A stretch of 64,000 bases of DNA from Gemmatimonadota bacterium. Its GTDB lineage: Bacteria; Gemmatimonadota; Gemmatimonadetes; Gemmatimonadales; GWC2-71-9. This document shows, piece by piece, positions 10,013 to 34,028 of the stretch. Where the stretch lies: NCBI GenBank assembly GCA_003222135.1, contig QHUM01000052.1, positions 5,335 to 69,334 of the forward strand, in the 5' to 3' direction. Positions within the stretch are counted from its first letter, which is position 1; each line of letters begins with the position of its first letter. A program made the position numbers and the translations under genes. The notes beneath the pieces were generated by a model that had not been told where the DNA came from, ran no database searches, and saw nothing but the letters and a program-made list of their open reading frames with translations.

Positions 10013-10060
10013 ACTGTGCTTCAGCACAGTGTCACGCCGAGCCCACCCTTCAGGGTGTGG
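10013..10060 (+). repeat. REP-like double-hairpin element, copy 1 (divergent)
   Basis: Hairpin 1: ACTGTGC-TTCA-GCACAGT. Hairpin 2: CCCACCC-TTCA-GGGTGTGG. Lies between convergent genes, and the GGDEF gene stop codon (10050-10052) is the TCA of the second TTCA loop. Confidence 0.6.
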
Positions 10061-11729: not shown

Positions 11730-11730
11730 G

Positions 11731-12243
11731 CTACGCCCGGAACCCCTGCTCGTCGGCCGACGGCCCGTAGATCGCCGGCACCGGCACATCGTTCATGCGC
11801 AAATAGACCGTCAGCTGCCCCCGGTGGTGCACCAGGTGGTTCACTACGTTGCGGTAGACGTCCCGCTTCGTCTTGCTCCACACGGCACGGCCGCCGTACT
11901 TGAACGTCCACGGCTTGGCGAACTCGGCATCGCTCGTGGCCGCGAGGGCCGTGCGAGCGGCCTGCACGTTGCGGTCGAGCAGCTCCAGGATCTCCTTGCC
12001 GCTTTCCAAAATGACGGGCCGGAACGGCGGTCCTCCCGGCGGGGCGATATCGAGCTCGTCCAGCGTCACGGCGTTCAGCGCCCAGCTGGGCAGCTCGGCG
12101 AGCAGCGTCGCGAGCCGGCCCAGCGGCATCGACTTCGGGTGCGGCTTCCACGCCGCCTTGCCGGTGGGGACGCGCTCGAGCGCCCGGCGGGTCGCCGCCA
12201 TCTCTTCGTCGAACTCGGGGATCAGCGTTTGGGCAATGGGCAC
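11731..12243 (-). CDS. DinB-family (four-helix-bundle, metal-binding) protein
   Basis: Length of 170 aa and the pattern ...[20 protein letters not shown]...[30 protein letters not shown] are typical of the DinB/YfiT superfamily. Confidence 0.85.
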
Positions 12244-15742: not shown

Positions 15743-16867
15743 TCACGTTGCGTGTCCCATGGCCCGCAGAAACTCCCGGTCCCACGCCGCGGAAATCCCC
15801 TCGCGCGGCGAGTAGGGACCCGGCACGTACGCCCGCGACGTGATGCCGGCGTGGCTCTGCTCGCAGATGTGCCAGTCCTGGCGGTTGGTCTCATCCCAGA
15901 ATCGCACGGCGTCGTCGGGATCGAACCCCGGCTCGGCGAACGAGTCGGGGTGAAATAGCCACTCGCACGTGATGCGCGTCCGCCCCGGGCCGTCGGGCCA
16001 CAGGGTGTGGAACATCACGTAGTCCGGGTGCAGGGAGAGCAGCAGGTTGGGGAAGATCGAATAGAAGTAGACGCGGTTCAGATCCTCCTCGGGAAGCCGG
16101 CCCACGGGCGTCCCACAGGCGCGGCCGCTCAGCGTGAGGCTGCCACCCTCTTTGGTGAGCACCATGTAGCCACCCAGGAACGGCCCTTTGAACAGGTCGT
16201 TCTCGCCGCTCAAGTATGGTGTGAGCTTCGCGAGGCCCGGGTGGATGACGGGGCAGTGCAGGCATTCGGAGTAATTCTGAAAGATGAGCTTCCAGTTGGC
16301 CGCGACGTCGTAGTAGACGCGGCCAGCGGCCTTGAGGGCGGAGAGGTTGAAGCGAGCGAACCGCCCGACGAGCGGCGCGAAGGCATGGGCGAACGGCTCC
16401 CCGTCCCGGGCGAGGTTGACGAAGAGGAAACCGTCCCACGTCTCGAGCGGCACGCCGTGGAGCGGGTAATCGCCCTTGTCGAACCCCTGGACCTCGTTCA
16501 TATGGGGCGCGCCGATCAGCTGCCCGTCGATGGTGTAGGTCCAAGCGTGGTAGGGGCACTGGATCGTCTCTGAGAACCGGCCGCGTGGCTCCTCGCACAG
16601 CCGCGTCCCGCGGTGGCGGCACACGTTGTAGAACGCCCGCACGGCGCCGTCGCGCCCTCGGACCACGATCACGCTCTCGCTCGCGATGGTGCGCAGCAGA
16701 TAGTCCCCCGCCACGGGGATCTCGGCCGCCCGCCCGATGCAGATCCAGCGCGCGGTGAAGATGCGCTCCTGCTCCTCCGCATAGATCTCGGCCGACGTGT
16801 AGTAGCGGCCGGGGAGCGTGCGCTGGCCCTGCTGGTAGGTTGCAGTGGCTTTGACGAACGTGCTCAT
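15743..16867 (-). CDS. Rieske [2Fe-2S] aromatic-ring-hydroxylating / N-demethylating oxygenase, alpha subunit
   Basis: Rieske motif CRHRGTRLC...CPYHAWTY. Catalytic domain carries NWKLIFQNYSECLHCPVIHP (mononuclear-iron His pair), as in GbcA/CntA/choline-monooxygenase-like enzymes. Confidence 0.88.
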   Translation of the reverse strand: MSTFVKATATYQQGQRTLPGRYYTSAEIYAEEQERIFTARWICIGRAAEIPVAGDYLLRTIASESVIVVRGRDGAVRAFYNVCRHRGTRLCEEPRGRFSETIQCPYHAWTYTIDGQLIGAPHMNEVQGFDKGDYPLHGVPLETWDGFLFVNLARDGEPFAHAFAPLVGRFARFNLSALKAAGRVYYDVAANWKLIFQNYSECLHCPVIHPGLAKLTPYLSGENDLFKGPFLGGYMVLTKEGGSLTLSGRACGTPVGRLPEEDLNRVYFYSIFPNLLLSLHPDYVMFHTLWPDGPGRTRITCEWLFHPDSFAEPGFDPDDAVRFWDETNRQDWHICEQSHAGITSRAYVPGPYSPREGISAAWDREFLRAMGHAT

Positions 16868-16876
16868 GAAGGAACG

Positions 16877-18079
16877 CTAGGGAACGCCCCGCCCGAACGC
16901 CACCCCCCGGCGCTCCCGGCCGAGCAGCGCCACGACGGCGCCGAGCGCGAACACCATCGCCGCAGAGAACGCCATCGAGCGCGCGTAGCTCGAGCCGACG
17001 GCGAACAGCGCCTGCACGTGCGGGAGCTTGCTGGCGATCGCCACACCGCATTGGTACGCGAAGCCGGGGAGGAAGCCACGCACCGCATCGGGGGAGAGCT
17101 CGGTGATGTGCGCCGGGATGACGCCCCACGCCCCCTGAACGAAGAACTGCATGATGAAGGCGCCGGCCACGAGCAGTGGTAACGACGGCGCGAACGCCCA
17201 GATCGGGATGGCCAGCACGGCGCCCAACAGGGCGAGCGCGATGGTGCGCCGCCGCCCGAGGCGGTCGGAGTACAGCCCGCACAGGATCCCGCCGGTGAGC
17301 GCGCCGACCTGCGAGAACGCCGTCAGGGCGGCGCGTGCGGTCGGGCTGAAACCCCAGTCGCGCTGCAGGAAGGTCGGGTACATGTCCTGGGTCCCGTGCG
17401 ACACCATGTTCATCATCGCCATCAGGACGGTGAGGTAGAGGAACCCTTTCCAGTTCGCGGCGATGGCGCGACCGAGCCCGCGCCAGTTGTCGTGTCGGGT
17501 CTGCCGCCATACCTCGGACTCCCGCACGCGTGCGCGCACGAACAGCGCCAGCAGCGCCGGCAGGCCGCCGATGAAGAACAACGGGCGCCAGCCCCAGTGC
17601 GGGAACACGAAGAAGTAGCACAGCGCCGCGAGCAGATAGCCGGCGGCGTATCCCTGTTGCAGCAGCCCGGAGACCACGCCGCGCAGCCGCGCGGGGACCT
17701 TTTCCATTACGAGCGAGGCCCCGACGCCCCATTCCGCGCCCATCCCGATGCCGAACAGCGCCCGCAGCACGAGGAACGTCGTGTAGTTCTGGGCGAGCCC
17801 GGACAACACCTCCACCACCGAGTAGAAGACGAGATCCGCCATCAGCGGGATCTTGCGGCCGTAGCGATCGGCGATCAGCCCGAAGATGAACGCGCCGATC
17901 GGTCGGCACGCGAGGGTGAGCGTGAGCGTGTACGCGACGTCGGCGTCCGAGCGACCGAAGTCCTTCGCGATGGCCGTGAGCGTCATCACGACCAGGAAGA
18001 AATCGAACGCGTCCAGCGTCCAGCCGAGGAAGCCGGCGACGACGGCCGCGCGCTGGTCGTCGCGCGCCGGCGCGGTCAC
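16877..18079 (-). CDS. MFS transporter (metabolite:H+ symporter-like)
   Basis: 12-TM profile with MFS loop motif GLIADRYGRKIPLM. Start set at GTG 18079, forming a GTGA overlap with the upstream stop (18076-18078). Confidence 0.85.
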   Translation of the reverse strand: MTAPARDDQRAAVVAGFLGWTLDAFDFFLVVMTLTAIAKDFGRSDADVAYTLTLTLACRPIGAFIFGLIADRYGRKIPLMADLVFYSVVEVLSGLAQNYTTFLVLRALFGIGMGAEWGVGASLVMEKVPARLRGVVSGLLQQGYAAGYLLAALCYFFVFPHWGWRPLFFIGGLPALLALFVRARVRESEVWRQTRHDNWRGLGRAIAANWKGFLYLTVLMAMMNMVSHGTQDMYPTFLQRDWGFSPTARAALTAFSQVGALTGGILCGLYSDRLGRRRTIALALLGAVLAIPIWAFAPSLPLLVAGAFIMQFFVQGAWGVIPAHITELSPDAVRGFLPGFAYQCGVAIASKLPHVQALFAVGSSYARSMAFSAAMVFALGAVVALLGRERRGVAFGRGVP

Positions 18080-20382
18080 GGACCTCCGATCCGGTCGAGC
18101 CAGAACTGGACGGCCAGATCGGTCAGGCTCCACAACTGCACGTCCGAGCTCGTCCCGTACCGCACCGGCAGGAGTCGCCCGTTCTCGATGCGGTAGCTCC
18201 ACAGCTCGGCGTGCCGCAGTCCCGAGCGATCCACCGCCGTGACGGTGCGCTGGAGCGCGTCACGTAATGGCGCGACGTCGGCACCGGACCGGGAGGGCGC
18301 CGCCGCGATCTGCTTCGCCAGGCCGGCGAGCAGCGCGTTCACGTCCCGACCCCACACGACGGTCGGCGAATGATACGGGTCCTGACGAAACCGCTCCCAC
18401 ACATCCCGCGACGCATAGGCGTCGTTGGCGACCAGCGGACCTAGATCGTCGACGAACAGCCCCCAGGGGTGCGGCCGCATGATCGGGCTCACGAGCTCGA
18501 GCGTCCGATCGCGACCGAGCGGCTCGAGCAGCAGCAGCATGGCCGGATCGGTGTTGACGATCGGGATCGGCCGGCCGTTCTCATCGAGCGAGAGGGCGAG
18601 GAACCGCAGCGTATCCCCGGGGATTCCGGTCCGCTGGACGACGGCGTCCCAGTACTCCCGGTCCGCCCGCGGCAGCCAGCGCAGCCGGTCCGCGACCGGA
18701 CGCCCGACGTCGCCGACCGCGACCCGGAAGTGCCGCTCGGCACCCCGCCACACGGCGATGGCGCGCTCGAGTGCCGCGCGATCGCGCACGAAGCTCCCGA
18801 GCGGCTCGTCGCGAATGGCCGGCGTCAGGCCGAGCTGTTTCAGGGCGTCGAGGATCGTCCCCACGGCCTCGAGCGCGTGCGGCACCCAGATGACGTTCAC
18901 ATCCATGGCGAACCGCCCGCCGCCGTAGCCGTCCCGGGAGTCGCGCCAGCTCGCGGAGATCCACCGGCCCTCGGCATCCCGGGGAAACCCGACCAGATTC
19001 GTCGCCACCGGGTTGCGGGTGTACGCGGCTGCCTGCCGCGTCACGTACGCGAGGTTCGAGACGAGCCGCTGGAGGTGGCGCTCCTCGAGCAGAAACGCGC
19101 GCTTACGCGCGGCCGGCACCCGCTGGTCGCTCAAGTAGCGGGCCGCGACCACCGGCAGCTGGAAGTCGTCGTCCACCATCACGTAGTTCTCGCGCACCGC
19201 CTGCAGGTCCTTGAGCACCGCTCGGGCCTGCGCCACCTGTCCGGCGTCGAGCAGCCGGTTGTACTCGGACGCATGCTCGCGGATCGCCTGGCCGCCGAGC
19301 GCCTCCTCGTGGCTCACGTCGCCCGTGGACGAGAGCTTGCGCAGCGCGCTGGCGATGACGTGCTCCGGCATCGCCGGCGCCCACACCGGCTCCATCAGCA
19401 GGGCGGTCATCAACATGTCGCGGCCGAAGTAGGTCGCGAAGTTCGGCAGCCCCGCCATCAGCTTCTCGCGCGAGCACAGCAGCTCCATGCCGCGCACCTC
19501 GCGCTCGAGCCGCCGGAACCGATCGGGGTGGGCCGAATCGCCGCGGACGGTCTCGGCAAAGTGGCGGAAGTCGTCGTTGAACATCTCGGTGCGGGAGAGC
19601 GGCGTCAGGGCGGCGGCGTCGGTGGTCACACGGACCGTGAAGCGGACGAGGCCGCCGGCGGGCCGGCGGATCGTGATGGTGCGTCCCGTGACTGCGGCCA
19701 CCGTCTCCCGGGCGTCGCCTTCCAGCGCGAGCCAGAGGTGGCTCTTGCCGTCGAAGCTCACCTGCTCGACCCGCACCACCCAGACCGTGTCGCCGCGCTG
19801 CGCGGTGATCCGCGGCAGGAGCCGCGCGCGCAGCGCCTCCAGGCTCGTCACGCCGAGCAGGGACAGATGGCGCGCGCGCTCGGCGGACCGCAACTTCGCG
19901 ATATGGTCGATCAGCTGCGACAGCTCCGCCTGCGGAAACGGCACGGCGTCGAGCGGCAGGGAGTCGCGCCTCGCGTACTGCAGATCGCGCTCCACCCGCA
20001 TAGAGCCGAGCAGGAAGAGACCGAGCGTGACGGAGGACGGGGTTTCCAGACCATAGGACACCGACCGGGTCTGTCCCGACGCACCCACGATGGCCCCGCC
20101 CGAGCTCCAGGCGAGCTCGGCCGGCGTGCCGGCCGAGTCGCGGGCGGTGAAGCCGGCGCTCTCGTTGACCGCGTCGGCCCAGAGGTGCACCACACGTCCC
20201 TTGCTGCGATTCAGATAGACCTGGAAGGCGTTCCCGCTGGCGTCCCGATACACCCGCGTCTCGTAGCCCTCGTACGCGGCCGGGTCGTCGAGTCCCGGCT
20301 CGGGGAAGGAGAGATATGGTGGAACCGTGTCCACGGGCGGGGCGCTCTGGACCACGAGCAGCAGCAACTTGAGCAGGGTCAT
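18076..20382 (-). CDS. Secreted hypothetical protein, possibly (alpha/alpha)6-barrel glycosidase-like (GDE_C-like)
   Basis: ATG 20382 gives MTLLKLLLLVVQSAPP (signal). The internal GLPNFATYFGRDMLMTALLMEPVW resembles the xFGRD motif of amylo-alpha-1,6-glucosidase/GH63-like barrels. The CDS is well supported by length and composition, but the function is a weak guess. Confidence 0.55.
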   Translation of the reverse strand: MTLLKLLLLVVQSAPPVDTVPPYLSFPEPGLDDPAAYEGYETRVYRDASGNAFQVYLNRSKGRVVHLWADAVNESAGFTARDSAGTPAELAWSSGGAIVGASGQTRSVSYGLETPSSVTLGLFLLGSMRVERDLQYARRDSLPLDAVPFPQAELSQLIDHIAKLRSAERARHLSLLGVTSLEALRARLLPRITAQRGDTVWVVRVEQVSFDGKSHLWLALEGDARETVAAVTGRTITIRRPAGGLVRFTVRVTTDAAALTPLSRTEMFNDDFRHFAETVRGDSAHPDRFRRLEREVRGMELLCSREKLMAGLPNFATYFGRDMLMTALLMEPVWAPAMPEHVIASALRKLSSTGDVSHEEALGGQAIREHASEYNRLLDAGQVAQARAVLKDLQAVRENYVMVDDDFQLPVVAARYLSDQRVPAARKRAFLLEERHLQRLVSNLAYVTRQAAAYTRNPVATNLVGFPRDAEGRWISASWRDSRDGYGGGRFAMDVNVIWVPHALEAVGTILDALKQLGLTPAIRDEPLGSFVRDRAALERAIAVWRGAERHFRVAVGDVGRPVADRLRWLPRADREYWDAVVQRTGIPGDTLRFLALSLDENGRPIPIVNTDPAMLLLLEPLGRDRTLELVSPIMRPHPWGLFVDDLGPLVANDAYASRDVWERFRQDPYHSPTVVWGRDVNALLAGLAKQIAAAPSRSGADVAPLRDALQRTVTAVDRSGLRHAELWSYRIENGRLLPVRYGTSSDVQLWSLTDLAVQFWLDRIGGP

Positions 20383-20468
20383 CCGAAAATCGTACGGCCT
20401 ACAGGGACGTTGCGCCACCCGCGTGGGCTCTTGACGGCTCGCGGCGCCCCGGCGATTCTAGCCGCCGA

Positions 20469-20526
20469 AGCGTGGTGTGCTTCAGCACAGTGCTGTGCCG
20501 AGCCCACGCTTCAGCGTGGGGAATCG
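20469..20526 (+). repeat. REP-like double-hairpin element, copy 2
   Basis: AGCGTGGTGTGC-TTCA-GCACAGTGCTGTGCCGAG-CCCACGC-TTCA-GCGTGGG-GAATCG. About 93% identical to copy 3. Lies in the 5' leader of the AhpD-like operon. Confidence 0.75.
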
Positions 20527-20554: not shown

Positions 20555-20896
20555 ATGCGTGAGCTGAGCGGGCGGTACGCCACTTTCACACAGCGACTGA
20601 TCGACAGCGTGCTGGGCGCGCCGGGCGACACGTCGAGCGAGCAGCGTCGCGCCGCGCTGGCGCGTGCGGCGCGGCCCGGCGGGCCGGCGGACGGCCTGGC
20701 GGCCCCGCTCGGGCGCTACGTCGACACTGTGGCCCGCCACGCCTACAAGCTCACGGACGACGACGTCGCCGCCCTGCAACGCGCGGGCAACTCGGAAGAC
20801 GCGATCTTCGAGATCACGGTTTCTGCGGCACTGGGCGCCGCGCTCGGCCGGCTCGAGCGCGGGCTGGCCGCGCTCCGCGGCGAGGAGCCGGACTGA
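20555..20896 (+). CDS. Small AhpD/CMD-like helical protein (no Cys)
   Basis: ATG 20555 is preceded by GGAGGTGG. 113 aa with ...VARHAYKLTDDDVAALQRAGNSEDAIFEITVSAALGAALGRL, resembling the C-terminal half of CMD-family proteins. Its stop overlaps the next ATG (TGATG at 20894-20898). Confidence 0.6.
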   Translation: MRELSGRYATFTQRLIDSVLGAPGDTSSEQRRAALARAARPGGPADGLAAPLGRYVDTVARHAYKLTDDDVAALQRAGNSEDAIFEITVSAALGAALGRLERGLAALRGEEPD

Positions 20897-21483
20897 TGCG
20901 TCTCCGTGCGGTCGAGCACCGCCATCGCCTGCCGCAGCGGCTCAAGCTCATGCTCATCCGGCTGGTGAGCGCGCGTCGCGTGCCCGACGTCGTCAAGACG
21001 TTGCTCTACCGGCCGGAATTCTTCGGCCGGCCGATGTGCGCCTGGACGCAGGCGGTCATGCGCGGGCCGTCGACGTGGAGCGTCGGCGAGCGGGAGCTGT
21101 TTGCCGCGTTCACGTCGCGCCTGAACCAATGTCTGTTCTGAACCGGTGCCCACGGCGCGGTCGCGTCGCTGGCCCTGAAAGACGCCCCGCTCGTCGAGGC
21201 GGTGCTGACCGATTGGCGCACCGCCCCGGTCGATCCCAAGGTCCGAGCCGCCCTCGGCTTTCTGGAGAAGCTCACGCTCGCCCCGGCGGACGTGCGGCCG
21301 GCGGATGTGGAGCTCCTCCGCGTCGCCGGCGTGAGCGATGAGGGCATCGAGGACGCGATTCAGGTCTGCGTGCTGTTCAATATCTACGACCGCCTCGCCG
21401 ATTCGCTCAGCTTCCATCTGCCTGGCCCCGACGGTTACGCGGCGTCGGGACGCTCCCTCATGAAGCGCGGGTACGTGCTCTAG
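20896..21483 (+). CDS. AhpD/carboxymuconolactone-decarboxylase-family (COG2128-type) protein with in-frame TGA at 21139-21141: candidate CxxU selenoprotein (alternative: nonsense pseudogene)
   Basis: Track ORFs 20896-21141 and 21202-21483 share a frame and are separated by one TGA only. The read-through product (195 aa) contains ...GERELFAAFTSRLNQCLF[TGA]TGAHGAV..., matching the family CxxCxxxH signature with TGA in place of the second Cys. Confidence 0.6.
21150..21172 (+). other. SECIS-like hairpin downstream of the in-frame UGA
   Basis: CCA-CGGCGC-[GGTC]-GCGTCG-(C)-TGG: 9 bp including one G-U pair and one bulged C. The GGUC tetraloop starts 17 nt after the UGA. Confidence 0.45.
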
Positions 21484-21484
21484 C

Positions 21485-21541
21485 AGCGTGTTGTGCTTCA
21501 GCACAGCGCTGTGCCGAGCCCACGCTTCAGTGTGGGAATCG
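21485..21541 (+). repeat. REP-like double-hairpin element, copy 3
   Basis: AGCGTGTTGTGC-TTCA-GCACAGCGCTGTGCCGAG-CCCACGC-TTCA-GTGTGGG-AATCG. It starts 1 nt after the AhpD-like stop (21481-21483). The stop of the convergent 1184-aa gene (21527-21529) is the TCA of the second loop. Confidence 0.75.
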
Positions 21542-24500: not shown

Positions 24501-25081
24501 GCGGCTGCCGAGTCCGCTGCGCTACGCGTGAGCAGTACGTCCACGAGCTCGAGCCGGGCCGCCACGTTGCCGGGCGCGCGCTGCACGATCCGCCGGAGGT
24601 AGGTCTCCTTGGCCGCGGGGTCGAGCGCCACCAGCTCGTACAGCGCGCGGAGGTCGTCGGCACTGTGGCGCAGCACCCGATCCACCTCGCGGCGCGCCTC
24701 GGCCGTGCGGCCGGTGAGCTCGTAGACTTTGGCGAGCGTCAGGGCGATGTCGTCGCTCGTGGTGTCCAGGGCCGCCGCGCGTCGGATCTCCTGCTCGGCC
24801 CGGTCGTAGCGGCCCAATCGCAGATGCACCAGGCCAAGATTCGCGTAGCCCAGCGCCTGATCGGGCGCCAGCGCGACGATCTTCGCGAACGCGGTTTCTG
24901 CCTGGGCGAACTGCTGGCTCCGCAGGTAGGCGAGGCCGAGCGTCCGCGCGGTGAGGATGGCGGCATCGCGCTCAAGGCCCGCCCCCGGCGCCGGCTCCCG
25001 CTCGCGGCAGTTGACGAGGAGCAGCGTCGTCGCGACGCCGAGACACTTCAGGGCATTTGGGATCATGGAGGCAGGCAACAT
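21527..25081 (-). CDS. TPR + FG-GAP/VCBS repeat + ASPIC/UnbV protein with a C-terminal extension of about 480 aa of unknown function
   Basis: N-terminal TPR-like helices (LGLAYLRSQQFAQAETAFAKIVALAPDQALGYANLGLVHLRLGRYDRAEQ). Multiple FG-GAP units follow (GDYDGDGAEDVFV, GDYDNDGRPDLYV, VDLDHDGDLDLFL, GDLDGDGLVDLVV, GDYDNDGFLDLFV, CDFDNDGFLDLVV, VDYDRDGDLDLIV). UnbV_ASPIC-like block NRFGIGATLELRAG...VRWPNGV, then SCPFLYAWDG... through to the end. Start is ATG 25081 (MLPASMIPNALKCLGVATTLLLVNC) or GTG 25111. Confidence 0.85.
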   Translation of the reverse strand: MLPASMIPNALKCLGVATTLLLVNCREREPAPGAGLERDAAILTARTLGLAYLRSQQFAQAETAFAKIVALAPDQALGYANLGLVHLRLGRYDRAEQEIRRAAALDTTSDDIALTLAKVYELTGRTAEARREVDRVLRHSADDLRALYELVALDPAAKETYLRRIVQRAPGNVAARLELVDVLLTRSAADSAAAHLEALERQLPELPREANRFFQQALALARAGRAAAAAAPAATFHRFMETTAPYQASLEKLRGATGAPPGYPILTFNPVITPPAQDARTIAAAIRFSDVTTTVGLGGLPPLPDTTGDVALATGDYDGDGAEDVFVAGHLFHNELAHATETTTRAGIRLRDRAVGATFGDYDNDGRPDLYVATTGGGALFRNSGDSTFTDVTAAAGLSGAPPAATALFVDLDHDGDLDLFLATPAGNRLYRNVPNGQFREMAGPMGLASVGGTRDAAFGDLDGDGLVDLVVVGNDERLTLFRNAGQGRFEDATAASGLTQGGAQGHAAAVAVGDYDNDGFLDLFVAAPGGMVPVLYHNRGDGTFEPDRRSAAFAALRTLAARAAVFCDFDNDGFLDLVVVGAPTKPGARGVYLFRNDQTGRFTDHSSILPDDLHAARRVAAVDYDRDGDLDLIVVGDDGRPRLLLNDGGNANQYVKVELAALRTGNGKNNRFGIGATLELRAGKLYQSRVVTGPVTHFGLGQRVKADVLRVRWPNGVAQTVYYPGTDADILEQQILKGSCPFLYAWDGTAFRFVTDVMWRSALGMPLGIMASGGGTDIASAPPHASREYMRIPGRALVPQDGRYIVQITEELWETAYLDQVKLLAVDHPDSGEVYVDEGFVPPAPGPAALRLFPVSHPRPPVSATDEHGTDWLPALRARDDRYVAPLTLTRYQGLATLHDLILDLGDLKGLESDSVYLFLAGWIYPTDASINIALAQSGKPGVIFPYLDVKDRQSVWRRVADVPFPSGKNKTVIVDLTGKFLSADHRVRIRTNMEIYWDQAFVAAASHSPESAASITTLDPVKADLHYRGFSRLYRKGGRYGPQWAVYEDLSRESPWEPIVGRFTRYGDVLPLVRVPDDMYVIIAPGDETTLTFDASAAPQLPQGWTRDFLLYTDAWLKDSDRNTAAGATVDPLPFHGMSRYPYGADEGYPSDAAHTRYLETYNTRRVVRHRAILETSNRFPH

Positions 25082-25116
25082 CGTCCGATCCTTGCCGGGG
25101 GACAAGGCCACGCGAT

Positions 25117-26907
25117 ATGGTTCACGGCGTGACGACCCTACGCGTGCGGAAGCTCGCCCTCACCACGGTGTTCCTCGGAGCCGTCTTCCTGGTCGTCGCG
25201 CTGAATCGCGGGCGACCGGAAGAGCGGGGCGCTGCCGGAGCCACCCCGCCTGGCTTTTCCCTCCGCGACGTGGCGCACCAGGCAGGGATCGATTTCATCC
25301 ATCACGCGCCCACGCTCGATCCCCGGATCGACAACATCGCCCCGCTCGTGGCGGCGCTCGGGGCATCCGTGTCCGTCAGCGACGTCAACAACGACGGCTG
25401 GCCCGACCTCTATTTCACGAACAGCCGGTTCGGCTTCCCCAACGCGCTCTATTTGAACCGCGGCGACGGGACGTTCGTCGACGTCGCCCGGAGCGCGGGG
25501 CTGGCGGACCTGAACCGCCCGGGCGAGGGGGTGTCGATGGGCGCCGTGTGGGGCGACTACGACAACGACGGGCTCGAGGACGTGCTCGTGTACAAGTGGG
25601 GATATCTGCAGCTGTTCAAGAACCTCGGGAATCTGCACTTCGTGGACGTGACCGCCGCCGCGGGGCTGCGTCACTGGATGAACAGCAATGGAGCGGTGTG
25701 GCTCGACTACGACCGTGACGGGCTGCTCGATCTCTACGTCACCGGCTACTTCCGCTCCGACATCGACTTCTGGCATTTGCAGACGACGCGCATCATGCAC
25801 AACAGCTTCGAGTTCGCGACCAACGGCGGCAAGAATCGCCTGTTCCATAACCTCGGGGGTGGCCGTTTCGAAGACGTCACCGACCAGATGGGGGTGGGCA
25901 GCACGCGCTGGACTCTCGCCGCCGCCGCGGCGGACTTCAATGGCGACGGCTGGCCCGACCTGTTTCTCGCGAACGACTACGGGCCGGAAGAGCTGTTCGT
26001 CAACGATTCCGGCAAGCGGTTCGTCCTGACCAGGGCCGGTCTCGAGAGTGACTCGAAGAGCGGCATGTCCGCCTCGCTCGGTGACGTGTTGAACCGCGGA
26101 CGGCTCGATGCGTTCGTGACCAACATCTCGGAGCGCGCCTACCTGTTTCAGGGCAACAACCTGCGCCTCAACTTCTTGCCGGAGCTGGGGCGCTTCCAGC
26201 AGGGGGCCGAAGGTGCCATCGCCGACGCCGGGTGGGCCTGGGGGGCGCAGCTGGGCGACCTGGACAACGACGGGCGCAACGAGCTGTTCGTCGTCAACGG
26301 CTACGTCTCGGGGGACCGGGACCGGAGCTACTGGTACGCGATGTCGAAGGTCGCGGGGGCGAACGGGAACGTGTTCGAAGACGCCAAGAACTGGCCCGCC
26401 GTCGGCAGCGCCAGCCTGTCCGGGTACGAGCGGTCGCGGGTGTTCGTCAACCGCGGCCTCACGGGCTGGACGGACGTGGCCGCGGCCGTCGGCGTGACCG
26501 ACGAGTCCGACGGCCGCGCCGTCGCGCTGGTCGACCTGTTCAACCGCGGGGTGCTCGACGTAGTGGTCGCGAACCAGAACCAGCCGGCCCTGATCTATAA
26601 GAATACCGTCGCGCCGGGCAACCATTGGATCGCGTTCCAGCTCGTGGGCACGCGGAGCAACCGCAGCGCCATCGGCGCCGAGGTGACGGTCGAAGCGGGC
26701 GGCGCGCGCCAGCTGAAGGTCGTGGACGGCGGGATGGGGTTCGCGAGCCAGAACGACCGGCGGCTGCACTTCGGCCTGGGCGGGACGACGCTCGTAGACC
26801 GGGTGGTGATCCGCTGGCCTTCGGGCACGCGCCAGGTGATCGAGCGCCCTCCCCTGGACCGCCTCAACGTCATTACCGAGCCGCCCGCCGCCGGCGCAGT
26901 GCCGTGA
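25117..26907 (+). CDS. CRTAC1-family protein (N-terminal TM anchor, FG-GAP/VCBS repeats, ASPIC/UnbV domain)
   Basis: ATG 25117 gives MVHGVTTLRVRKLALTTVFLGAVFLVVALN. FG-GAP units include SDVNNDGWPDLYFTN, GDYDNDGLEDVLV, LDYDRDGLLDLYV, ADFNGDGWPDLFLAN and GDLDNDGRNELFV. C-terminal ASPIC/UnbV block NRSAIGAEVTVEAGG...RVVIRWPSG. Confidence 0.88.
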   Translation: MVHGVTTLRVRKLALTTVFLGAVFLVVALNRGRPEERGAAGATPPGFSLRDVAHQAGIDFIHHAPTLDPRIDNIAPLVAALGASVSVSDVNNDGWPDLYFTNSRFGFPNALYLNRGDGTFVDVARSAGLADLNRPGEGVSMGAVWGDYDNDGLEDVLVYKWGYLQLFKNLGNLHFVDVTAAAGLRHWMNSNGAVWLDYDRDGLLDLYVTGYFRSDIDFWHLQTTRIMHNSFEFATNGGKNRLFHNLGGGRFEDVTDQMGVGSTRWTLAAAAADFNGDGWPDLFLANDYGPEELFVNDSGKRFVLTRAGLESDSKSGMSASLGDVLNRGRLDAFVTNISERAYLFQGNNLRLNFLPELGRFQQGAEGAIADAGWAWGAQLGDLDNDGRNELFVVNGYVSGDRDRSYWYAMSKVAGANGNVFEDAKNWPAVGSASLSGYERSRVFVNRGLTGWTDVAAAVGVTDESDGRAVALVDLFNRGVLDVVVANQNQPALIYKNTVAPGNHWIAFQLVGTRSNRSAIGAEVTVEAGGARQLKVVDGGMGFASQNDRRLHFGLGGTTLVDRVVIRWPSGTRQVIERPPLDRLNVITEPPAAGAVP

Positions 26908-27869: not shown

Positions 27870-28784
27870 ATGCGTGCGGTACCCATGCTCGCCGCGTACA
27901 GTTGTGTGCTGCTTGCCGGCTTGCCGACTCCCGTCGTCGGTCAGGCCGGCACGACGCATCGTGTGAGTTCGTCCAGTCCCGTCTACTTGATCATCCGCAC
28001 CGACGACGCCGGCATGAGTCACAGCGTCAACATGGGTCTCCAACGACTCATCGACGCGCGCCTGCCCATTTCCGTGTCGGTGATGTTTCCCTGTCCCTGG
28101 TACCAGGAAACCGTCGAGATCCTGAAGCGGCATCCTGAGGTCGCGGTCGGGATTCACTTGACGCTCAATTCGGAGTGGAGGAATTATCGGTGGGGACCAG
28201 TCACGGGTCGTGAAGCCGTGCCGACCCTGGTGGACTCCAACGGATACTTCTTCCAGTCCGCCGAAGCCCTGCACGACAACCACCCCGACGTCCGGCAGAT
28301 CGAGAAGGAGCTGCGCGCGCAGATCGAGCGGGCGCGCCGATCGGGGCTCAAGATCGACTACGTCGACTATCACATGGGCACGGCGACGCGCTACGCCGAG
28401 TTTCGGGAGGTCGCGGAGCGGCTGGCGAGCGAATTCGGTCTCGGCATGTCCGAGTACTTCGGCGAGACGATGGATGCACCCCAGTACTCGGCGGCTCCGC
28501 GCCAGAAGGCGGACAGCCTGGTCGCGATGATCGATCGCCTGAAGCCCGGCTTCAATGTCGTGGTCACCCATGTAGGCATAGACGATGCGGAGCTGGGCGC
28601 CCTGGTGGACATGAACACCGACCAGCCGCTCCCCGAGATGAGCAAGAATCGTCAGGGGGAGCTGGATGCGCTCACGTCGGACCGATTTGCCGGGGCCGTG
28701 AAGGCCCGAAACGTACTGCTCATCACGTATCGCGAGCTGATCACCAAGCAAGGCCTCAAGGCCATGCGACGACCCGCAGGATGA
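27870..28784 (+). CDS. YdjC/ChbG-family carbohydrate deacetylase, secreted
   Basis: Signal MRAVPMLAAYSCVLLAGLPTPVVGQ. YdjC motifs are present: YLIIRTDDAGMSHSVNMG, and VGIHLTLNSEW. Confidence 0.85.
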   Translation: MRAVPMLAAYSCVLLAGLPTPVVGQAGTTHRVSSSSPVYLIIRTDDAGMSHSVNMGLQRLIDARLPISVSVMFPCPWYQETVEILKRHPEVAVGIHLTLNSEWRNYRWGPVTGREAVPTLVDSNGYFFQSAEALHDNHPDVRQIEKELRAQIERARRSGLKIDYVDYHMGTATRYAEFREVAERLASEFGLGMSEYFGETMDAPQYSAAPRQKADSLVAMIDRLKPGFNVVVTHVGIDDAELGALVDMNTDQPLPEMSKNRQGELDALTSDRFAGAVKARNVLLITYRELITKQGLKAMRRPAG

Positions 28785-28794
28785 GGGCACCGCC

Positions 28795-31700
28795 ATGAAC
28801 GACATGCTGCAGCGTAGGGGATTCCTTCGTGCCGTGGGGACGAGCTTGACGTTGGCTCTGCTGGTGTGCGCGACGGCAGTCGGCCAGCAGCAGATCGAGA
28901 TCTCCGGCAAGGTCACCGCGCCCGATGGGGAGCGGATTCGGGGCGCCTCGGTCCACATCCGAGGGACCACCACCAGTGCCGTTACCGATGACGCGGGGAA
29001 GTACTCGCTGACGGCTCCCAGCGATGCCGTGTTGGTGTTTGCCCGCATCGGGTATCGCGGCGTCGGGGTGAGCGTCGGCGGACGCACCAACGTCGACGTC
29101 GTCATGGAACGAGCCGTCACCGTGCTGCCCGAGGTGGTCGTCACCGGGTACACGACACAGCGGCGGCAGGACATCACGGGCGCCGAGTCCAGCGTGGACG
29201 TCGCGAGCATTGCCCAGCAGACCTCCACCAGCGTGCTCCAGCGGCTCGATGGCCAGGTCGCTGGCGTGACCGTCGAGAACAGCGGGTCGCCTGGCTCACG
29301 CACCACGGTGCGGATCCGCGGCGTCAGCTCGTTCCAGAACAACGATCCGCTGTACATCGTGGACGGCACTCCCGTGGAGGACACCTACCTGAACTGGTTG
29401 AACCCGAGCGAGATCGGATCCATCCAGGTCCTGAAGGATGCGTCGGCAGCGTCGATCTACGGCTCGCGCGCCAGCAACGGGGTCATCATCATCGAAACGC
29501 GGCGCGGCAGGCCAGGACCGCGCCGCGTCACGGTGGACGTCAGGACCGGAGTGGCGACGCCGACCAACGGGATGGATAAGATCCTGACGCTGAACGCGCT
29601 CGACTATTTCAACGTCGTCAAGACCGCCTACCAGAATGCCGGGACCGCCGTGCCGAGGAACATCTACGGGGATCCCAACAGTCCGTCGGTGCCCGCCTAT
29701 ATCTGGCCGAACGATGGCAAGGGCCAGAGTTGCACCGCCGCCGGCCCCACCTGCACGACCGTCGTGGATCCGGCGAGCTACAAGTACCCCAGCAACCTCA
29801 TCATGCCGGGCAGCCCCGGGACGAACTGGTGGAAGGCGGTGTTCGGGTCCGGTCAGTACCGCGACGCGAATATCGCGGTGTCGGGCGGCGGGGACGACAA
29901 CGCGTACCACGTGTCGTTCAATTTCCTCGATCAGGAAGGGACGGCCGCGTATAACCGGCTCCAGCGGGGGGGCGTGCGCATCAACACGGCGTTCAACATG
30001 GGGCAGGTGAGCGTCGGGGAGAACATCACGCTGTCGCGCGAGCGAAAATACGGCGGGCTGGACGACAACAACCTGGGCGAGAACAACATCGTCGGCAAGA
30101 ACATCATGCAGCAGCCGGTGGTCCCGATCTACGACATCGGGGGGAACTTCGCTTCGGGCAAGGCCGTTGGCTTGAGCAACCTGACCAATCCGCTCAAGAT
30201 CGCCTGGGCCGGCCAGCACGACATCAACACCAACGACCGCATCTTCGGCAACGTGTTCGCCGGGTTCGACCCCGGCCACTCCGTGTCCCTGAAGACGCGG
30301 CTCGGGTTCAACCTGGCTCAGGGCTCATTTCACGGCTTCTCGCCCACCACGCCCGAGAACTCGGAGGTGACGGACGTCAACGGCATCAACGAGAACTACA
30401 ACCTGTTCACCGAGTGGACGTGGAGCAACACGCTCAACTATACGCGCACCATCAGCCAGCACAATGTGGCGGTGCTGCTGGGGCAGGAAGCGACCAAGAA
30501 CACCACTCGCTTCGAGGCGGGCAGCTGTGCGAACCTCCTGAACTCGAGCGTGGACTCGCGCTACATCCAGGATGCGCTGTGTGATCCGACCACCAAGAAC
30601 GTCAGCAGCAGCGGTGGGCAGGCCGCGCTGCTGTCGTTCTTCGGCAAGGCCGACTACAACTATGGGGACCGGTACTACCTCAGCGCCACGTTGCGTCGCG
30701 ACGGCTCTTCCCGATTCGGGCCGACGAATCGGTGGGGCACCTTCCCGGCGGTTGGGGCGGGTTGGCGGCTGTCGCGGGAGTCGTTCCTGACGAACAATTC
30801 GCTGTTTTCGAACATGATGCTGCGGGTCGGCTGGGGGGTCACCGGCAATCAGCTGATCCCCGCCGGCCGCATCATCAGTCAGTTCGGCGGCGACCGGGGC
30901 GACACCTTCTACGACATCGGGGGAACGAGCCCGACCACGATTCGACCGGGATTCAAGCAGACGGCGATCGGGAATCCGGTCCTGAAGTGGGAAGAGCAGC
31001 GCTCCACCAACGTCGGCCTGGACCTCGAGTTCCTCCAGGGCCGGGGGACGGCCAGCATCGACGTGTATCGGCGGAACACGAACAATCTGTTGTTCGACCC
31101 GAGGGCACCCGCCGCGGCAGGCTCGGCCGCTCCTCCGATCGTCAACATCGGAAGGATGAGAAACAACGGCATCGATTTTTCGATCGGCTACCGGAGCACG
31201 CTCGGCGCCGGGACGCTGTGGAGCGTCACCTTCAACGGCAGCCACTATCGCAACAAGATCCTCCAGATCGACAACCTCGGAACGCAGTCTTTCGAGGGGC
31301 CGATTTCGCTGCGGGAGCAGAATCCCGTGATCAACATGCTCGGCCAGCCGATCGGGGCGTTTTACGGTCTGGTGGCGGACGGGTACTACAAGGACTCGGC
31401 GGATGCCGCCCCGTTCTGGAACGACGGCGCGCGCCCCGGCCGGATCAAGTTCAAAGACTTGAACGGGGACGGCGCGATCACTGCCGCCGACCGGGCGATC
31501 ATCGGGAGCCCCCATCCGGACTTCACCGGCGGATTGGATTTGAACCTGCGCCGCGGCAACTGGGAAGTCAGCGCGACCGTGTTCGGGACGTTCGGAGGCA
31601 AGATCTTCAACGCGCAGAAGTACTGGTACGTGTTCCGCTATTTCGATACCAACGTGCGGAGCGACCTGCTGGCGAACTCCGTGGTGCTGGATGGACCGTG

Positions 31701-32094: not shown

Positions 32095-32125
32095 CGGCTC
32101 GTCTTTATTCGGGGGACGGAGGACG

Positions 32126-34021: not shown

Positions 34022-34028
34022 GCTAGAG

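What the first reader, a model, noticed from the sequence alone, without database searches (positions are those of the whole stretch)
20896..21483. In-frame TGA at the second Cys of the CxxCxxxH motif of an AhpD/CMD-family gene, followed by an fdhF-like GGUC-loop hairpin: candidate CxxU selenoprotein
Seen directly in the sequence:
- ORFs 20896-21141 and 21202-21483 are in the same frame and are separated by exactly one stop codon, the TGA at 21139-21141.
- Read through, they give a 195-aa protein with a continuous AhpD/carboxymuconolactone-decarboxylase (COG2128-type) sequence: ...WSVGERELFAAFTSRLNQ-C-L-F-[TGA]-T-G-A-H-GAVASLALKD....
- Nine nt after the TGA a hairpin starts: CCA-CGGCGC-[GGUC]-GCGUCG-(C)-UGG (21150-21172). 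Seventeen nt separate the UGA from the GGUC tetraloop.

Established knowledge: the catalytic signature of this family is C-x-x-C-x-x-x-H, so the TGA replaces precisely the second redox Cys. As I recall it, the E. coli fdhF SECIS has 18 nt between the UGA and the same GGUC apical loop. From memory and without a citation, AhpD-like proteins are among the families reported in bacterial selenoproteome surveys.

Inference: this is a Sec-decoding gene rather than a nonsense pseudogene. Codon-exact placement in a redox motif plus a correctly spaced SelB-type hairpin is hard to get by chance.
Basis: partly seen in the sequence, partly recalled or inferred. Interest (0 to 1): 0.8.

Follow-up and report, generated by a model that had tools for sequence, protein, structure and literature searches.

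The report
AhpD-like selenoprotein gene with SECIS
The in-frame TGA is almost certainly a selenocysteine codon in a small redox enzyme of a soil Gemmatimonadota bacterium, read with the help of a hairpin just downstream; the call is sound, but this protein family has been known to use selenocysteine since 2005.

Summary
Window 20896-21483 is one 195-codon gene interrupted only by the TGA at 21139-21141.

**Evidence that the TGA is decoded:**
- The read-through protein passes NCBIfam TIGR01926 (109.6 bits, cutoff 81.8).
- The TGA aligns with the second Cys of CxxC in 102 of 120 homologs and in solved AhpD-like structures.
- All 160 related loci fetched (about 79 species genomes, nearly all Gemmatimonadota, plus 80 soil metagenome contigs, 61-98% protein identity) carry TGA at this codon with the frame intact.
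- The 113 codons after the TGA are under purifying selection (median dN/dS 0.19).

**Evidence for the hairpin:**
- The hairpin CGGCGC-GGUC-GCGUCG (21153-21168) starts 11 nt after the TGA.
- It has essentially no synonymous variation in 151 unique sequences.
- It shows one compensatory pair (G.U in 100 sequences, C-G in 28, none broken).
- It meets every published bacterial SECIS criterion.
- Four Cys-codon homologs with the same H-G-A-V-A-(S/A) residues lack it.

**Limits and novelty:**
- selA, selB, selC and selD could not be checked; none lies in the window.
- "AhpD-like protein, TIGR01926, CxxU" is already catalogued as a selenoprotein family, so this is a new member of a known kind.
- Interest is low to moderate.

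The parts
20555..20896 (+). Upstream partner gene, about 113 aa (an alternative GTG start lies at 20477). It is a divergent CMD/AhpD-fold paralog without the CxxC/CxxU motif. Its TGA stop (20894-20896) overlaps the selenoprotein ATG by one base (TGATG).
   Evidence: Sequence reading. hhalign of 131 orthologs against the selenoprotein alignment gives probability 89%, E 2e-6, aligned to residues 68-167. It is adjacent on the same strand in 140 of 161 loci, with the 1-nt stop/start overlap in 108. No Pfam or NCBIfam hit.
20882..20887 (+). Shine-Dalgarno-like GAGGAG, 8 nt upstream of the ATG at 20896.
   Evidence: Read directly from the sequence. Not otherwise tested.
20896..21483 (+). AhpD-like (TIGR01926, 'peroxidase-related enzyme') selenoprotein gene: 195 codons plus a TAG stop. 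Predicted active-site residues are E67 (21094-21096), C79 (21130-21132), U82 (21139-21141) and H86 (21151-21153).
   Evidence: frame. (TIGR01926 109.6 bits against a cutoff of 81.8). (Pfam CMD 26.3 against 23). (PDB 6K40 E 7e-24; 2PRR, 2OYO, 2PFX, 3C1L). (E67, C79, F81, T83, H86 invariant in A1). (AhpD relay Glu-x11-Cys-x2-Cys-x3-His).
21139..21141 (+). In-frame TGA, the predicted selenocysteine codon (U82), at the position of the second Cys of CxxC.
   Evidence: TGA in 160 of 160 related loci and in 2 of 3 distant 'W' forms checked. Cys in 102 of 120 homologs. Thr +1, Ala +11 and Leu +12 are conserved as amino acids through many synonymous codons, so the frame is translated straight after the TGA. 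dN/dS after the TGA is 0.19.
21153..21168 (+). Core SECIS-type hairpin: 6-bp stem CGGCGC/GCGUCG closing the tetraloop GGUC (21159-21162). Its base is 11 nt after the UGA and its loop 17 nt after.
   Evidence: Folding: -8.1 kcal/mol alone and present in the MFE and centroid structures. 99.9% of cells paired in 128 distinct sequences. Pair 17-28 is G.U in 100 and C-G in 28, with none broken; slid controls give 13-65% paired. Third-position entropy is 0-0.07 bits for codons +4 to +10, against 0.3-1.5 bits in flanking invariant-residue codons. Meets the bSECIS model constraints quoted in PMC13188914.
21150..21172 (+). Optional lower extension of the hairpin in this window and its close relatives: CCA/UGG with C21169 bulged. 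Not universal.
   Evidence: -11.9 kcal/mol for the 23-mer. The pairs hold in 70%, 96% and 87% of sequences. The alternative MFE lower stems hold in 64-75%.

Best explanation
Window 20896-21483 encodes a 195-residue AhpD-like thiol/selenol oxidoreductase of the TIGR01926 'peroxidase-related enzyme' subfamily. The organism is a soil Gemmatimonadota (Gemmatimonadales-like) bacterium.

**Proposed mechanism (inferred from the known bacterial system):**
1. The UGA at 21139-21141 is decoded as selenocysteine (U82).
2. When the ribosome reaches the UGA, the hairpin CGGCGC-GGUC-GCGUCG lies 11 nt downstream in the mRNA. It is bound by the elongation factor SelB carrying Sec-tRNA(Sec).
3. SelB delivers Sec in competition with release factor 2.
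4. Translation then continues for 113 more codons.

**Proposed chemistry (inferred from M. tuberculosis AhpD and P. aeruginosa PA0269):** the product carries a C79-x-x-U82 redox pair inside the AhpD proton-relay constellation E67...C79..U82...H86. Sec sits at the second CxxC position and forms a reversible selenenylsulfide with C79 while reducing an unidentified peroxide, peroxiredoxin or disulfide substrate.

**Operon:** the gene is the second of a translationally coupled pair. The first gene (20555-20896) is a catalytically dead CMD-fold paralog that probably co-assembles with the selenoprotein.

**Shown here:**
- The gene structure and family membership.
- The alignment of the TGA with Cys.
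- Conservation of the TGA and of the frame.
- Purifying selection after the TGA.
- RNA-level constraint and covariation in the hairpin.
- The link between the hairpin and the TGA.

**Inferred, not shown:**
- That the inserted residue is Sec.
- The substrate.
- The heteromer with the partner protein.
For: **Gene and family**
- One TGA in a single frame.
- TIGR01926 at 109.6 bits, above its 81.8-bit cutoff.
- Solved AhpD-like structures 6K40, 2PRR, 2OYO, 2PFX and 3C1L match at E 7e-24 to 9e-17, with CxxC...H aligned on C79/U82/H86.
- The relay spacing Glu-x11-Cys-x2-Cys-x3-His described for AhpD (PMC3141380) matches E67/C79/U82/H86, all invariant in A1.

**The TGA is decoded**
- 160 of 160 loci carry TGA. 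They were retrieved through the peptide pattern ERELFAAF, which does not include the TGA codon. They come from about 79 species-level genomes and 80 soil metagenome contigs at 61-98% identity.
- Every locus has a 112-128-codon ORF after the TGA.
- Median dN/dS against the window is 0.19 after the TGA and 0.13 before it.
- Thr +1 is kept through ACG, ACC, ACA and ACT (107, 28, 13 and 2 sequences).

**TGA is otherwise a stop here**
- TGA ends most long ORFs in the window.
- TGA ends the partner gene 243 nt upstream in 121 of the 140 loci that have it.
- TGA ends 11 of the orthologs themselves.

**SECIS**
- Loop GGUC and 4 of 6 stem pairs are invariant.
- Pair 3 covaries G.U to C-G, and 99.9% of cells are paired.
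- Synonymous sites are frozen in codons +4 to +10 only.
- All four bSECIS criteria from PMC13188914 are met: 4-nt loop, 6-bp stem, G in the first two loop positions, 17-nt spacing, and -8.1 kcal/mol for the core.
- The geometry is one nt off E. coli fdhF, which has the same GGUC loop.
- It agrees with the '6-8 bp stem, conserved loop G about 20 nt from UGA' rule in PMC4605307.

**Link between hairpin and TGA**
- Four distinct TGC homologs encoding H-G-A-V-A-(S/A) use other synonymous codons and lack the hairpin.
- Distant TGA forms P0030 and P0076 keep it.

**Precedent**
- AhpD-like, COG2128/TIGR01926, CxxU is an established selenoprotein family.
Against: - No selA, selB, selD or tRNA-Sec gene lies in the 64-kb window or in the 1.24 Mb of related loci. 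This is uninformative, not negative, because only small parts of each genome were available.
- None of the selenoproteome papers I could read mentions Gemmatimonadota.
- No Rfam family matches the hairpin.
- The hairpin in the single sequence is not energetically exceptional and is largely forced by the protein motif.
- Only one stem pair covaries; four never vary and so say nothing either way.
- Rare relatives have TGG (L172) or AGA (L161) at the site, so the codon is not absolutely fixed.
- No direct chemical evidence for selenium.
Confidence: 0.9

Rival explanations
1. The UGA is bypassed without selenocysteine. Either the hairpin stimulates near-cognate read-through (Trp, Cys or Arg inserted), or the gene yields two polypeptides: an 81-aa N-terminal piece plus a C-terminal piece restarted at GTG 21202.
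For: The Sec machinery was not found in the DNA available. Rare relatives encode Trp (TGG, L172) or Arg (AGA, L161) at this position with the hairpin still present, so a non-Sec residue is at least encodable there. Downstream stem-loops are known to stimulate read-through in other systems (general knowledge, not tested here).
Against: The site is the catalytic second Cys of CxxC in 102 of 120 homologs; Trp or Arg there would abolish the redox pair. The hairpin satisfies every criterion of the SelB-type bSECIS model, including the GGUC loop shared with fdhF. The family is a documented selenoprotein family. The 20 codons between the TGA and GTG 21202 include invariant T83, H86, A88, V89 and A90, and they show synonymous variation at Thr +1, Ala +11 and Leu +12. 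They are therefore translated, which rules out restart at 21202.
Confidence: 0.06
2. The TGA is a nonsense mutation in a decaying pseudogene, or a sequencing or assembly error for TGC/TGT.
For: A single in-frame stop in a single sequence is the usual signature of either. Automatic annotation would split the gene or flag it as a pseudogene.
Against: The same TGA is in 160 of 160 independently assembled relatives down to 61% identity, with no other stops or frameshifts. Purifying selection acts on both sides of it (dN/dS 0.13 and 0.19). A conserved RNA element is tied to it.
Confidence: 0.01
3. The organism reads TGA as a sense codon genome-wide (genetic code 4 or 25), as some database gene calls for relatives assumed by translating it as W.
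For: Fourteen homologs in the protein database show 'W' at this column.
Against: Those W calls are gene-calling artefacts. The same calls read through genuine stop codons and fuse or extend genes (P0011, P0029, P0076), and the DNA of P0030 and P0076 has TGA. In the window TGA is the commonest terminator of long high-GC3 ORFs. It terminates the partner gene 243 nt upstream.
Confidence: 0.01

Closest known systems
AhpD-like selenoprotein family (COG2128 / TIGR01926, CxxU). First described in the Sargasso Sea metagenome (Zhang, Fomenko & Gladyshev 2005, PMC1088965). Listed as 'AhpD-like 1' in the GOS survey (PMC2398784) and catalogued in the 2026 review PMC13188914.
   Same: Same NCBIfam model, passed above its cutoff. 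Same CxxU motif with Sec at the second Cys. Widespread Cys-containing homologs. SECIS immediately downstream with G in the apical loop.
   Different: The published examples are mostly marine metagenome reads, and the papers I could read do not mention Gemmatimonadota. Here the gene is a conserved feature of soil Gemmatimonadales-type genomes. It comes with an invariant GGUC hairpin and a conserved CMD-fold partner gene.
E. coli fdhF SECIS, the archetypal SelB-binding hairpin.
   Same: It lies in the coding region directly after the UGA and has an identical GGUC apical tetraloop. The loop starts at nt 21 from the U of UGA here and at nt 22 in fdhF. The base of the minimal hairpin is 11 nt after the UGA here. 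From my memory of Liu et al. 1998 (not re-checked), that is the spacing required for the minimal fdhF element.
   Different: The stem here is six continuous G/C-rich pairs (-8.1 kcal/mol). fdhF has an A/U-containing stem with a bulged U17 (-4.2 kcal/mol for its 17-mer). No conserved 5'-side bulged U is present here. The lower helix is not conserved.
Mycobacterium tuberculosis AhpD and P. aeruginosa PA0269: CxxC alkylhydroperoxidases with a Glu/Cys/Cys/His proton relay (PMC3141380).
   Same: All-helical CMD/AhpD fold family by sequence. Identical spacing of Glu-x11-Cys-x2-Cys-x3-His.
   Different: Sec replaces the second Cys. No ahpC or peroxiredoxin gene is a conserved neighbour, so a role as AhpC reductase is not supported. 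The middle relay residue (His132 or Tyr50) is Phe81 here.
Avi_7169/Avi_7170-type gene pairs (NCBIfam TIGR04030 alkylhydroperoxidase domain protein plus TIGR04029 CMD domain protein).
   Same: A CxxC-type AhpD-domain protein is encoded next to a CMD-fold protein without the motif. The window protein gives sub-threshold hits to both models (49.4 and 24.3 bits).
   Different: Both scores are far below the curated cutoffs (233 and 101 bits), and the partner gene matches neither model. The resemblance is architectural only. That the two models mark adjacent genes is my recollection, not tested here.

Membership tests
AhpD-like selenoprotein family (TIGR01926, CxxU) | The protein scores above the curated cutoff of NCBIfam TIGR01926 (peroxidase-related enzyme). 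| tested here: met
   109.6 bits against a cutoff of 81.8, residues 8-173 on profile positions 7-173 of 178 (with U modelled as C).
AhpD-like selenoprotein family (TIGR01926, CxxU) | The in-frame TGA aligns with the second Cys of the CxxC motif of Cys-containing homologs. | tested here: met
   102 of 120 homologs have Cys at the column and 118 of 120 have the first Cys. PDB 6K40 and 2PRR align CxxC on C79/U82.
AhpD-like selenoprotein family (TIGR01926, CxxU) | The TGA and the reading frame are conserved among orthologs, with purifying selection downstream. | tested here: met
   160 of 160 loci carry TGA. All have a 112-128-codon ORF after it. dN/dS is 0.19.
AhpD-like selenoprotein family (TIGR01926, CxxU) | [quoted passage not shown] | not testable with these tools
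   None in the window or in 1.24 Mb of loci.
AhpD-like selenoprotein family (TIGR01926, CxxU) | Selenium is actually incorporated at the UGA. | not testable with these tools
   Needs 75Se labelling or mass spectrometry.
Bacterial SECIS element (consensus model quoted in PMC13188914) | [quoted passage not shown] | tested here: met
   Loop GGUC, invariant in 128 distinct sequences.
Bacterial SECIS element (consensus model quoted in PMC13188914) | Upper stem of 4-16 bp. | tested here: met
   6 bp in the window, with 99.9% of cells paired across relatives. It is 5 bp in L050 and 4 bp in L170.
Bacterial SECIS element (consensus model quoted in PMC13188914) | 16-37 nt between the UGA and the apical loop. 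| tested here: met
   17 nt. fdhF has 18 nt.
Bacterial SECIS element (consensus model quoted in PMC13188914) | Minimum free energy of -7.5 kcal/mol or lower. | tested here: met
   -8.1 kcal/mol for the 16-nt core, -11.9 for the 23-mer, -18.0 for the 45 nt from the UGA.
Bacterial SECIS element (consensus model quoted in PMC13188914) | RNA-level selection: covariation, and synonymous-site conservation tied to the UGA. | tested here: met
   Pair 17-28 is G.U in 100 sequences and C-G in 28, with none broken. Third-position entropy is near 0 bits in codons +4 to +10 only. The hairpin is absent from four TGC homologs. Only one pair covaries, so the structural support is modest; the synonymous-site signal is strong.
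Bacterial SECIS element (consensus model quoted in PMC13188914) | Bound by SelB and required for UGA recoding. | not testable with these tools
   Needs a binding or reporter assay.
Canonical AhpD (AhpC-reducing adaptor, M. tuberculosis type) | Proton-relay residues Glu-x11-Cys-x2-Cys-x3-His. | tested here: met
   E67, C79, U82 (in place of Cys) and H86, all invariant in A1.
Canonical AhpD (AhpC-reducing adaptor, M. tuberculosis type) | Genetic linkage with ahpC (a peroxiredoxin). | tested here: not met
   No peroxiredoxin among the window neighbours or among the conserved neighbour clusters of 161 loci. I therefore do not file it as AhpD proper.
NF041238 AhpD_rel_CFYUT (alkylhydroperoxidase-related selenoprotein, 'hypothetical protein 1' of the Sargasso Sea) | Score above the curated cutoff of NF041238. 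| tested here: not met
   29.5 bits against a cutoff of 175. This is a different selenoprotein family.

The most novel reading that the evidence does not exclude
The conserved H-G-A-V-A-S motif that follows CxxC in this AhpD-like subfamily already encodes most of a SelB-type SECIS. Four of the six stem pairs and the G-U of the loop are fixed by first and second codon positions. Cys-type genes therefore sit only two or three point mutations from a working UGA plus SECIS. For example, L168 reads TGC ... CAC GGC GCG GTC GCC TCG, which is one synonymous change plus TGC to TGA away. This pre-adaptation would explain why Cys/Sec switching seems to have happened more than once in the family, and why AhpD-like proteins are among the most abundant environmental selenoproteins. 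It would also document routine selenocysteine use across aerobic soil Gemmatimonadota, a phylum absent from the selenoproteome literature I could search.
Probability: 0.35. Interest if true: 0.45.

Novelty: new member of a known kind. Interest (0 to 1): 0.3.

Why it matters
**Annotation.** The gene will be mis-annotated as two fragments or as a pseudogene. In metagenome catalogues it already appears as a 'Trp'-containing protein called with the wrong genetic code. Recognising it restores a complete redox enzyme.

**Biology.** A recent review describes selenoproteins as rare in aerobes.

**Evolution.** The invariant 16-nt hairpin across proteins as divergent as 61% identity is an unusually clean natural example of overlapping protein and RNA constraints. 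It suggests a simple mutational route from Cys to Sec.

None of this changes the established picture of bacterial Sec decoding.

Tried and rejected
- **Rfam.** No family at gathering thresholds over the whole window. A permissive scan of 21100-21260 gave only chance hits on the opposite strand. Short SECIS hairpins are not captured by curated models.
- **Single-sequence folding statistics.** Not significant for the 62-nt stretch, so I did not rely on them.
- **Sec machinery.** ARAGORN found no tRNA-Sec in the window or in 172 loci. Both are uninformative given the small fraction of each genome held.
- **Literature on Sec in Gemmatimonadota.** No mention in PMC13188914, PMC13326102 (no supplement held), PMC5029168 including its supplements, PMC12013277 or PMC8318568.
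- **Other selenoprotein genes.** A scan for ORF pairs split by one TGA found none in the window. In the loci it found only a second AhpD-like paralog, in L078.
- **Structure prediction.** I dropped it because the PDB sequence matches already settle the fold family.
- **All 'W' and 'R' database forms as hidden TGA.** Partly rejected. P0030 and P0076 are TGA. P0096 is a true TGG, P0017 is AGA, and P0079 is CGC and groups with Cys forms.
- **Conserved functional neighbours such as ahpC.** None found.
- **A fuzzy-regex search for the flanking repeat.** It timed out and was replaced by blastn-short.
Full report
**1. The observation**

Window 20896-21483 (+) is a single reading frame whose only internal stop is the TGA at 21139-21141. 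Read-through gives 195 residues containing ...ERELFAAFTSRLNQ-C-L-F-[TGA]-T-G-A-H-G-A-V-A-S....

| Element | Coordinates |
|---|---|
| Stem 5' arm CGGCGC | 21153-21158 |
| Loop GGTC | 21159-21162 |
| Stem 3' arm GCGTCG | 21163-21168 |
| Optional extension CCA/TGG, C21169 bulged | 21150-21172 |

Seventeen nt lie between the TGA and the loop. The fdhF 41-mer TGACACGGCCCATCGGTTGCAGGTCTGCACC... is 100% identical in 5,419 E. coli genomes under the fdhF annotation and has GGUC 18 nt after the UGA.

On its own the hairpin is weak evidence, for two reasons:
- The window is 67.7% G+C. The 62 nt after the TGA fold no better than shuffles (z +0.89).
- Four of the six stem pairs and the G-U of the loop come from first and second codon positions of G-A-V-A-S. 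Cys-containing relatives share that motif.

**2. What the protein is**

- With U modelled as C, the protein passes NCBIfam TIGR01926 'peroxidase-related enzyme' (109.6 bits, cutoff 81.8) and Pfam CMD (26.3 bits, cutoff 23).
- It is far below the cutoff of the separate selenoprotein family NF041238 (29.5 against 175).
- It matches solved AhpD-like structures 6K40, 2PRR, 2OYO, 2PFX and 3C1L at E 7e-24 to 9e-17. Their CxxC...H aligns on C79/U82/H86.
- The AhpD proton relay described for M. tuberculosis (Glu118, Cys130, Cys133, His137) and PA0269 (Glu36, Cys48, Cys51, His55) has the spacing Glu-x11-Cys-x2-Cys-x3-His (PMC3141380). The window protein has E67, C79, U82 and H86, all invariant among its relatives.
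- Among 120 database homologs, 102 have Cys at the TGA column, 14 have 'W' and 3 have 'R'.

**3. Is the TGA decoded?**

A search with the family alignment used the peptide pattern ERELFAAF, which does not include the TGA codon. It returned two sets of loci:
- 80 loci from species-representative genomes. Almost all are Gemmatimonadales or Gemmatimonadota soil MAGs. A few are labelled Longimicrobiales, Vicinamibacterales/Acidobacteriota or 'ANGP1'.
- 80 soil metagenome contigs.

Protein identity to the window ranges from 61% to 98%. The results:
- All 160 loci carry TGA at the aligned codon.
- All 161 sequences, window included, have an uninterrupted 112-128-codon ORF after the TGA.
- Against the window, median dN/dS is 0.13 for the 60 codons before the TGA and 0.19 (maximum 0.47) for the codons after it. 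Median pS is about 0.44-0.52, so there has been ample divergence.
- Directly after the TGA, Thr +1 is kept through ACG, ACC, ACA and ACT (107, 28, 13 and 2 sequences). Ala +11 and Leu +12 are likewise kept through several codons. The frame is therefore translated from the first codon after the TGA, which excludes restart at GTG 21202.

TGA is a normal terminator in these genomes:
- It ends most long ORFs in the window.
- It ends the gene immediately upstream (TGATG overlap at 20894-20898).
- It ends 11 of the orthologs themselves.

Pseudogene, sequencing error and genome-wide reassignment are thereby excluded.

**4. The 'W' and 'R' database forms**

- P0011, P0029 and P0076 read through real stop codons as W, so they are code-4 gene calls.
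- The DNA of P0030 and P0076 has TGA with the GGUC hairpin: the exact hairpin in P0030 and a 4-bp version in P0076.
- P0096 is a true TGG (L172) and P0017 is AGA (L161). Each is one substitution from TGA and both keep most or all of the hairpin. They are either recent losses or errors on single short contigs.
- P0079 is CGC with different hairpin codons and groups with Cys forms. It looks like TGC to CGC.

**5. The RNA element**

- In 151 unique sequences, codons +4 to +10 (H-G-A-V-A-S-L) have third-position entropy of 0-0.07 bits. Equally invariant residues nearby (E-R-E-L-F-A-A-F, C, F, T) have 0.3-1.5 bits.
- On 128 distinct 45-mers, the 6-bp stem is paired in 99.9% of cells.
- Stem pair 3 is G.U in 100 sequences and C-G in 28, with none broken. 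That double change alters two amino acids (HGAVAS to HAAVAA).
- Sliding the 3' partners by 1-3 columns drops pairing to 13-65%.
- Four stem pairs never vary, so covariation support rests on one pair. The synonymous-site freeze is the stronger signal.

The element meets all constraints of the published bacterial SECIS model quoted in PMC13188914. It also fits the '6-8 bp stem, conserved loop G about 20 nt from UGA' description in PMC4605307.

| bSECIS criterion | Required | Observed here |
|---|---|---|
| Apical loop length | 3-9 nt | 4 nt (GGUC) |
| Upper stem | 4-16 bp | 6 bp |
| G in first two loop positions | yes | yes |
| UGA-to-loop spacing | 16-37 nt | 17 nt |
| Minimum free energy | -7.5 kcal/mol or lower | -8.1 kcal/mol for the core alone |

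The control that ties it to the TGA is the set of four distinct TGC-codon homologs encoding H-G-A-V-A-(S/A): L163, L165, L168 and L169. They use other synonymous codons and do not form the GGUC hairpin. No Rfam family matches.

**6. Surroundings**

- The gene is the second of a pair. The upstream ORF (probably 20555-20896, 113 aa) has no Pfam or NCBIfam hit. By profile-profile comparison it is a divergent CMD-fold paralog lacking CxxC (89%, E 2e-6).
- The partner is adjacent in 140 of 161 loci, and in 108 of them its stop overlaps the selenoprotein start by one base.
- A GAGGAG lies 8 nt before the ATG.
- No peroxiredoxin or other redox partner is a conserved neighbour. The other recurrent neighbour is a convergent gene for a large TPR/beta-propeller protein.
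- No sel gene or tRNA-Sec lies in the window or in the 1.24 Mb of loci. This is uninformative.

**7. Mechanism**

This is a canonical bacterial selenoprotein gene. SelB carrying Sec-tRNA(Sec) recognises the GGUC hairpin 11 nt after the UGA and inserts Sec82. The protein then uses a C79/U82 selenenylsulfide couple within the AhpD Glu/Cys/Sec/His relay, probably in complex with its CMD-fold partner. The substrate is unknown.

Shown here: gene structure, family membership, conservation, selection, and the RNA constraint with its link to the TGA. Inferred: the identity of the inserted residue, the role of SelB, the chemistry and the heteromer. Confidence is 0.9.

**8. Comparison with what is known, and novelty**

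AhpD-like (COG2128, CxxU) was reported as a selenoprotein family in 2005, with 27 Sargasso Sea sequences (PMC1088965). It was among the most abundant families in the GOS survey, with 299 sequences (PMC2398784). The 2026 review lists it explicitly as 'AhpD-like protein, TIGR01926, CxxU' (PMC13188914). The finding is therefore a correct identification of a member of a known selenoprotein family.

What I did not find in the literature available to me:
- Any mention of Gemmatimonadota as Sec users.
- The point that this subfamily's HGAVAS motif pre-encodes most of the SECIS.

A rough neighbour-joining tree puts TGA forms in at least two groups with Cys forms between them. Cys-form L168 is two substitutions from TGA plus the full hairpin. 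Both fit easy, repeated Cys/Sec switching, but the tree has no support values and this remains tentative.

**9. Verdict**

The gene is a new member of a known kind, of low to moderate interest (0.3).

Noticed in passing
window 20469-20520 and 21485-21536; partial copy at 10015-10053; also L081:1885-1936, L083:1184-1235, L084:3637-3688, L087:3637-3687, L040:12068-12112: A 52-nt direct repeat (94% identical, two small TTCA-loop hairpins) brackets the two-gene AhpD-like unit, 1,016 nt apart. Copies occur beside the ortholog in a few close relatives and elsewhere in one locus. It looks like a short dispersed REP/MITE-like intergenic element of this lineage, not something specific to the operon.
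   Followed up: partly
L078:7248 (TGA); first copy at L078:4822. L057 and L068 are two contigs of one MAG.: Some genomes carry two AhpD-like selenoprotein paralogs. In L078 a second gene 2.4 kb downstream reads ...NECVF-TGA-IGSHAAVAA with the same GGUC hairpin in its C-G variant.
   Followed up: partly
L161:1332-1913 (AGA); L172:153-716 (TGG): Two single short metagenome contigs have a sense codon one substitution away from TGA (Arg AGA, Trp TGG). They still carry all or most of the hairpin. These are either recent losses of Sec that kill the CxxU pair, or sequencing errors.
   Followed up: partly
database proteins P0011, P0029, P0076 (and other 'W' forms); L170:900-1490: Public metagenome gene calls translate this TGA as Trp (genetic code 4). 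In doing so they read through genuine stops, fusing the partner gene to the selenoprotein or extending its C-terminus. The selenoprotein is hidden in protein catalogues as a 'CxxW' protein.
   Followed up: yes
L005:6180-6261, L023:6180-6261, L041:2718-2799, L123:3180-3261: ARAGORN calls an 82-nt 'tRNA-Val(cac)' inside the coding sequence, spanning the TGA and the hairpin, in four orthologs. This is almost certainly a false positive caused by the G/C-rich palindromic stretch.
   Followed up: no
L168:1001-1588: A Cys-form homolog reads TGC ... CAC GGC GCG GTC GCC TCG. That is one synonymous change (GCC to GCG) plus TGC to TGA away from the complete Sec codon and SECIS of the window.
   Followed up: partly
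window 28000-38000: G+C drops to 63-65%, against 67-71% elsewhere. My GC3-based ORF filter found no long high-GC3 ORF between about 32.1 and 42.1 kb, apart from a 102-codon ORF at 38151-38456. This may be a compositionally distinct segment.
   Followed up: no
window 15743-16876 (-), 16877-18259 (-), 10050-11792 (-): Neighbouring genes include a Rieske-type oxygenase large-subunit-like protein, a sialate/aromatic-acid-type MFS transporter and a GGDEF diguanylate cyclase. The large proteins at 18076-20457 and 25015-26907 have no NCBIfam hit.
   Followed up: no
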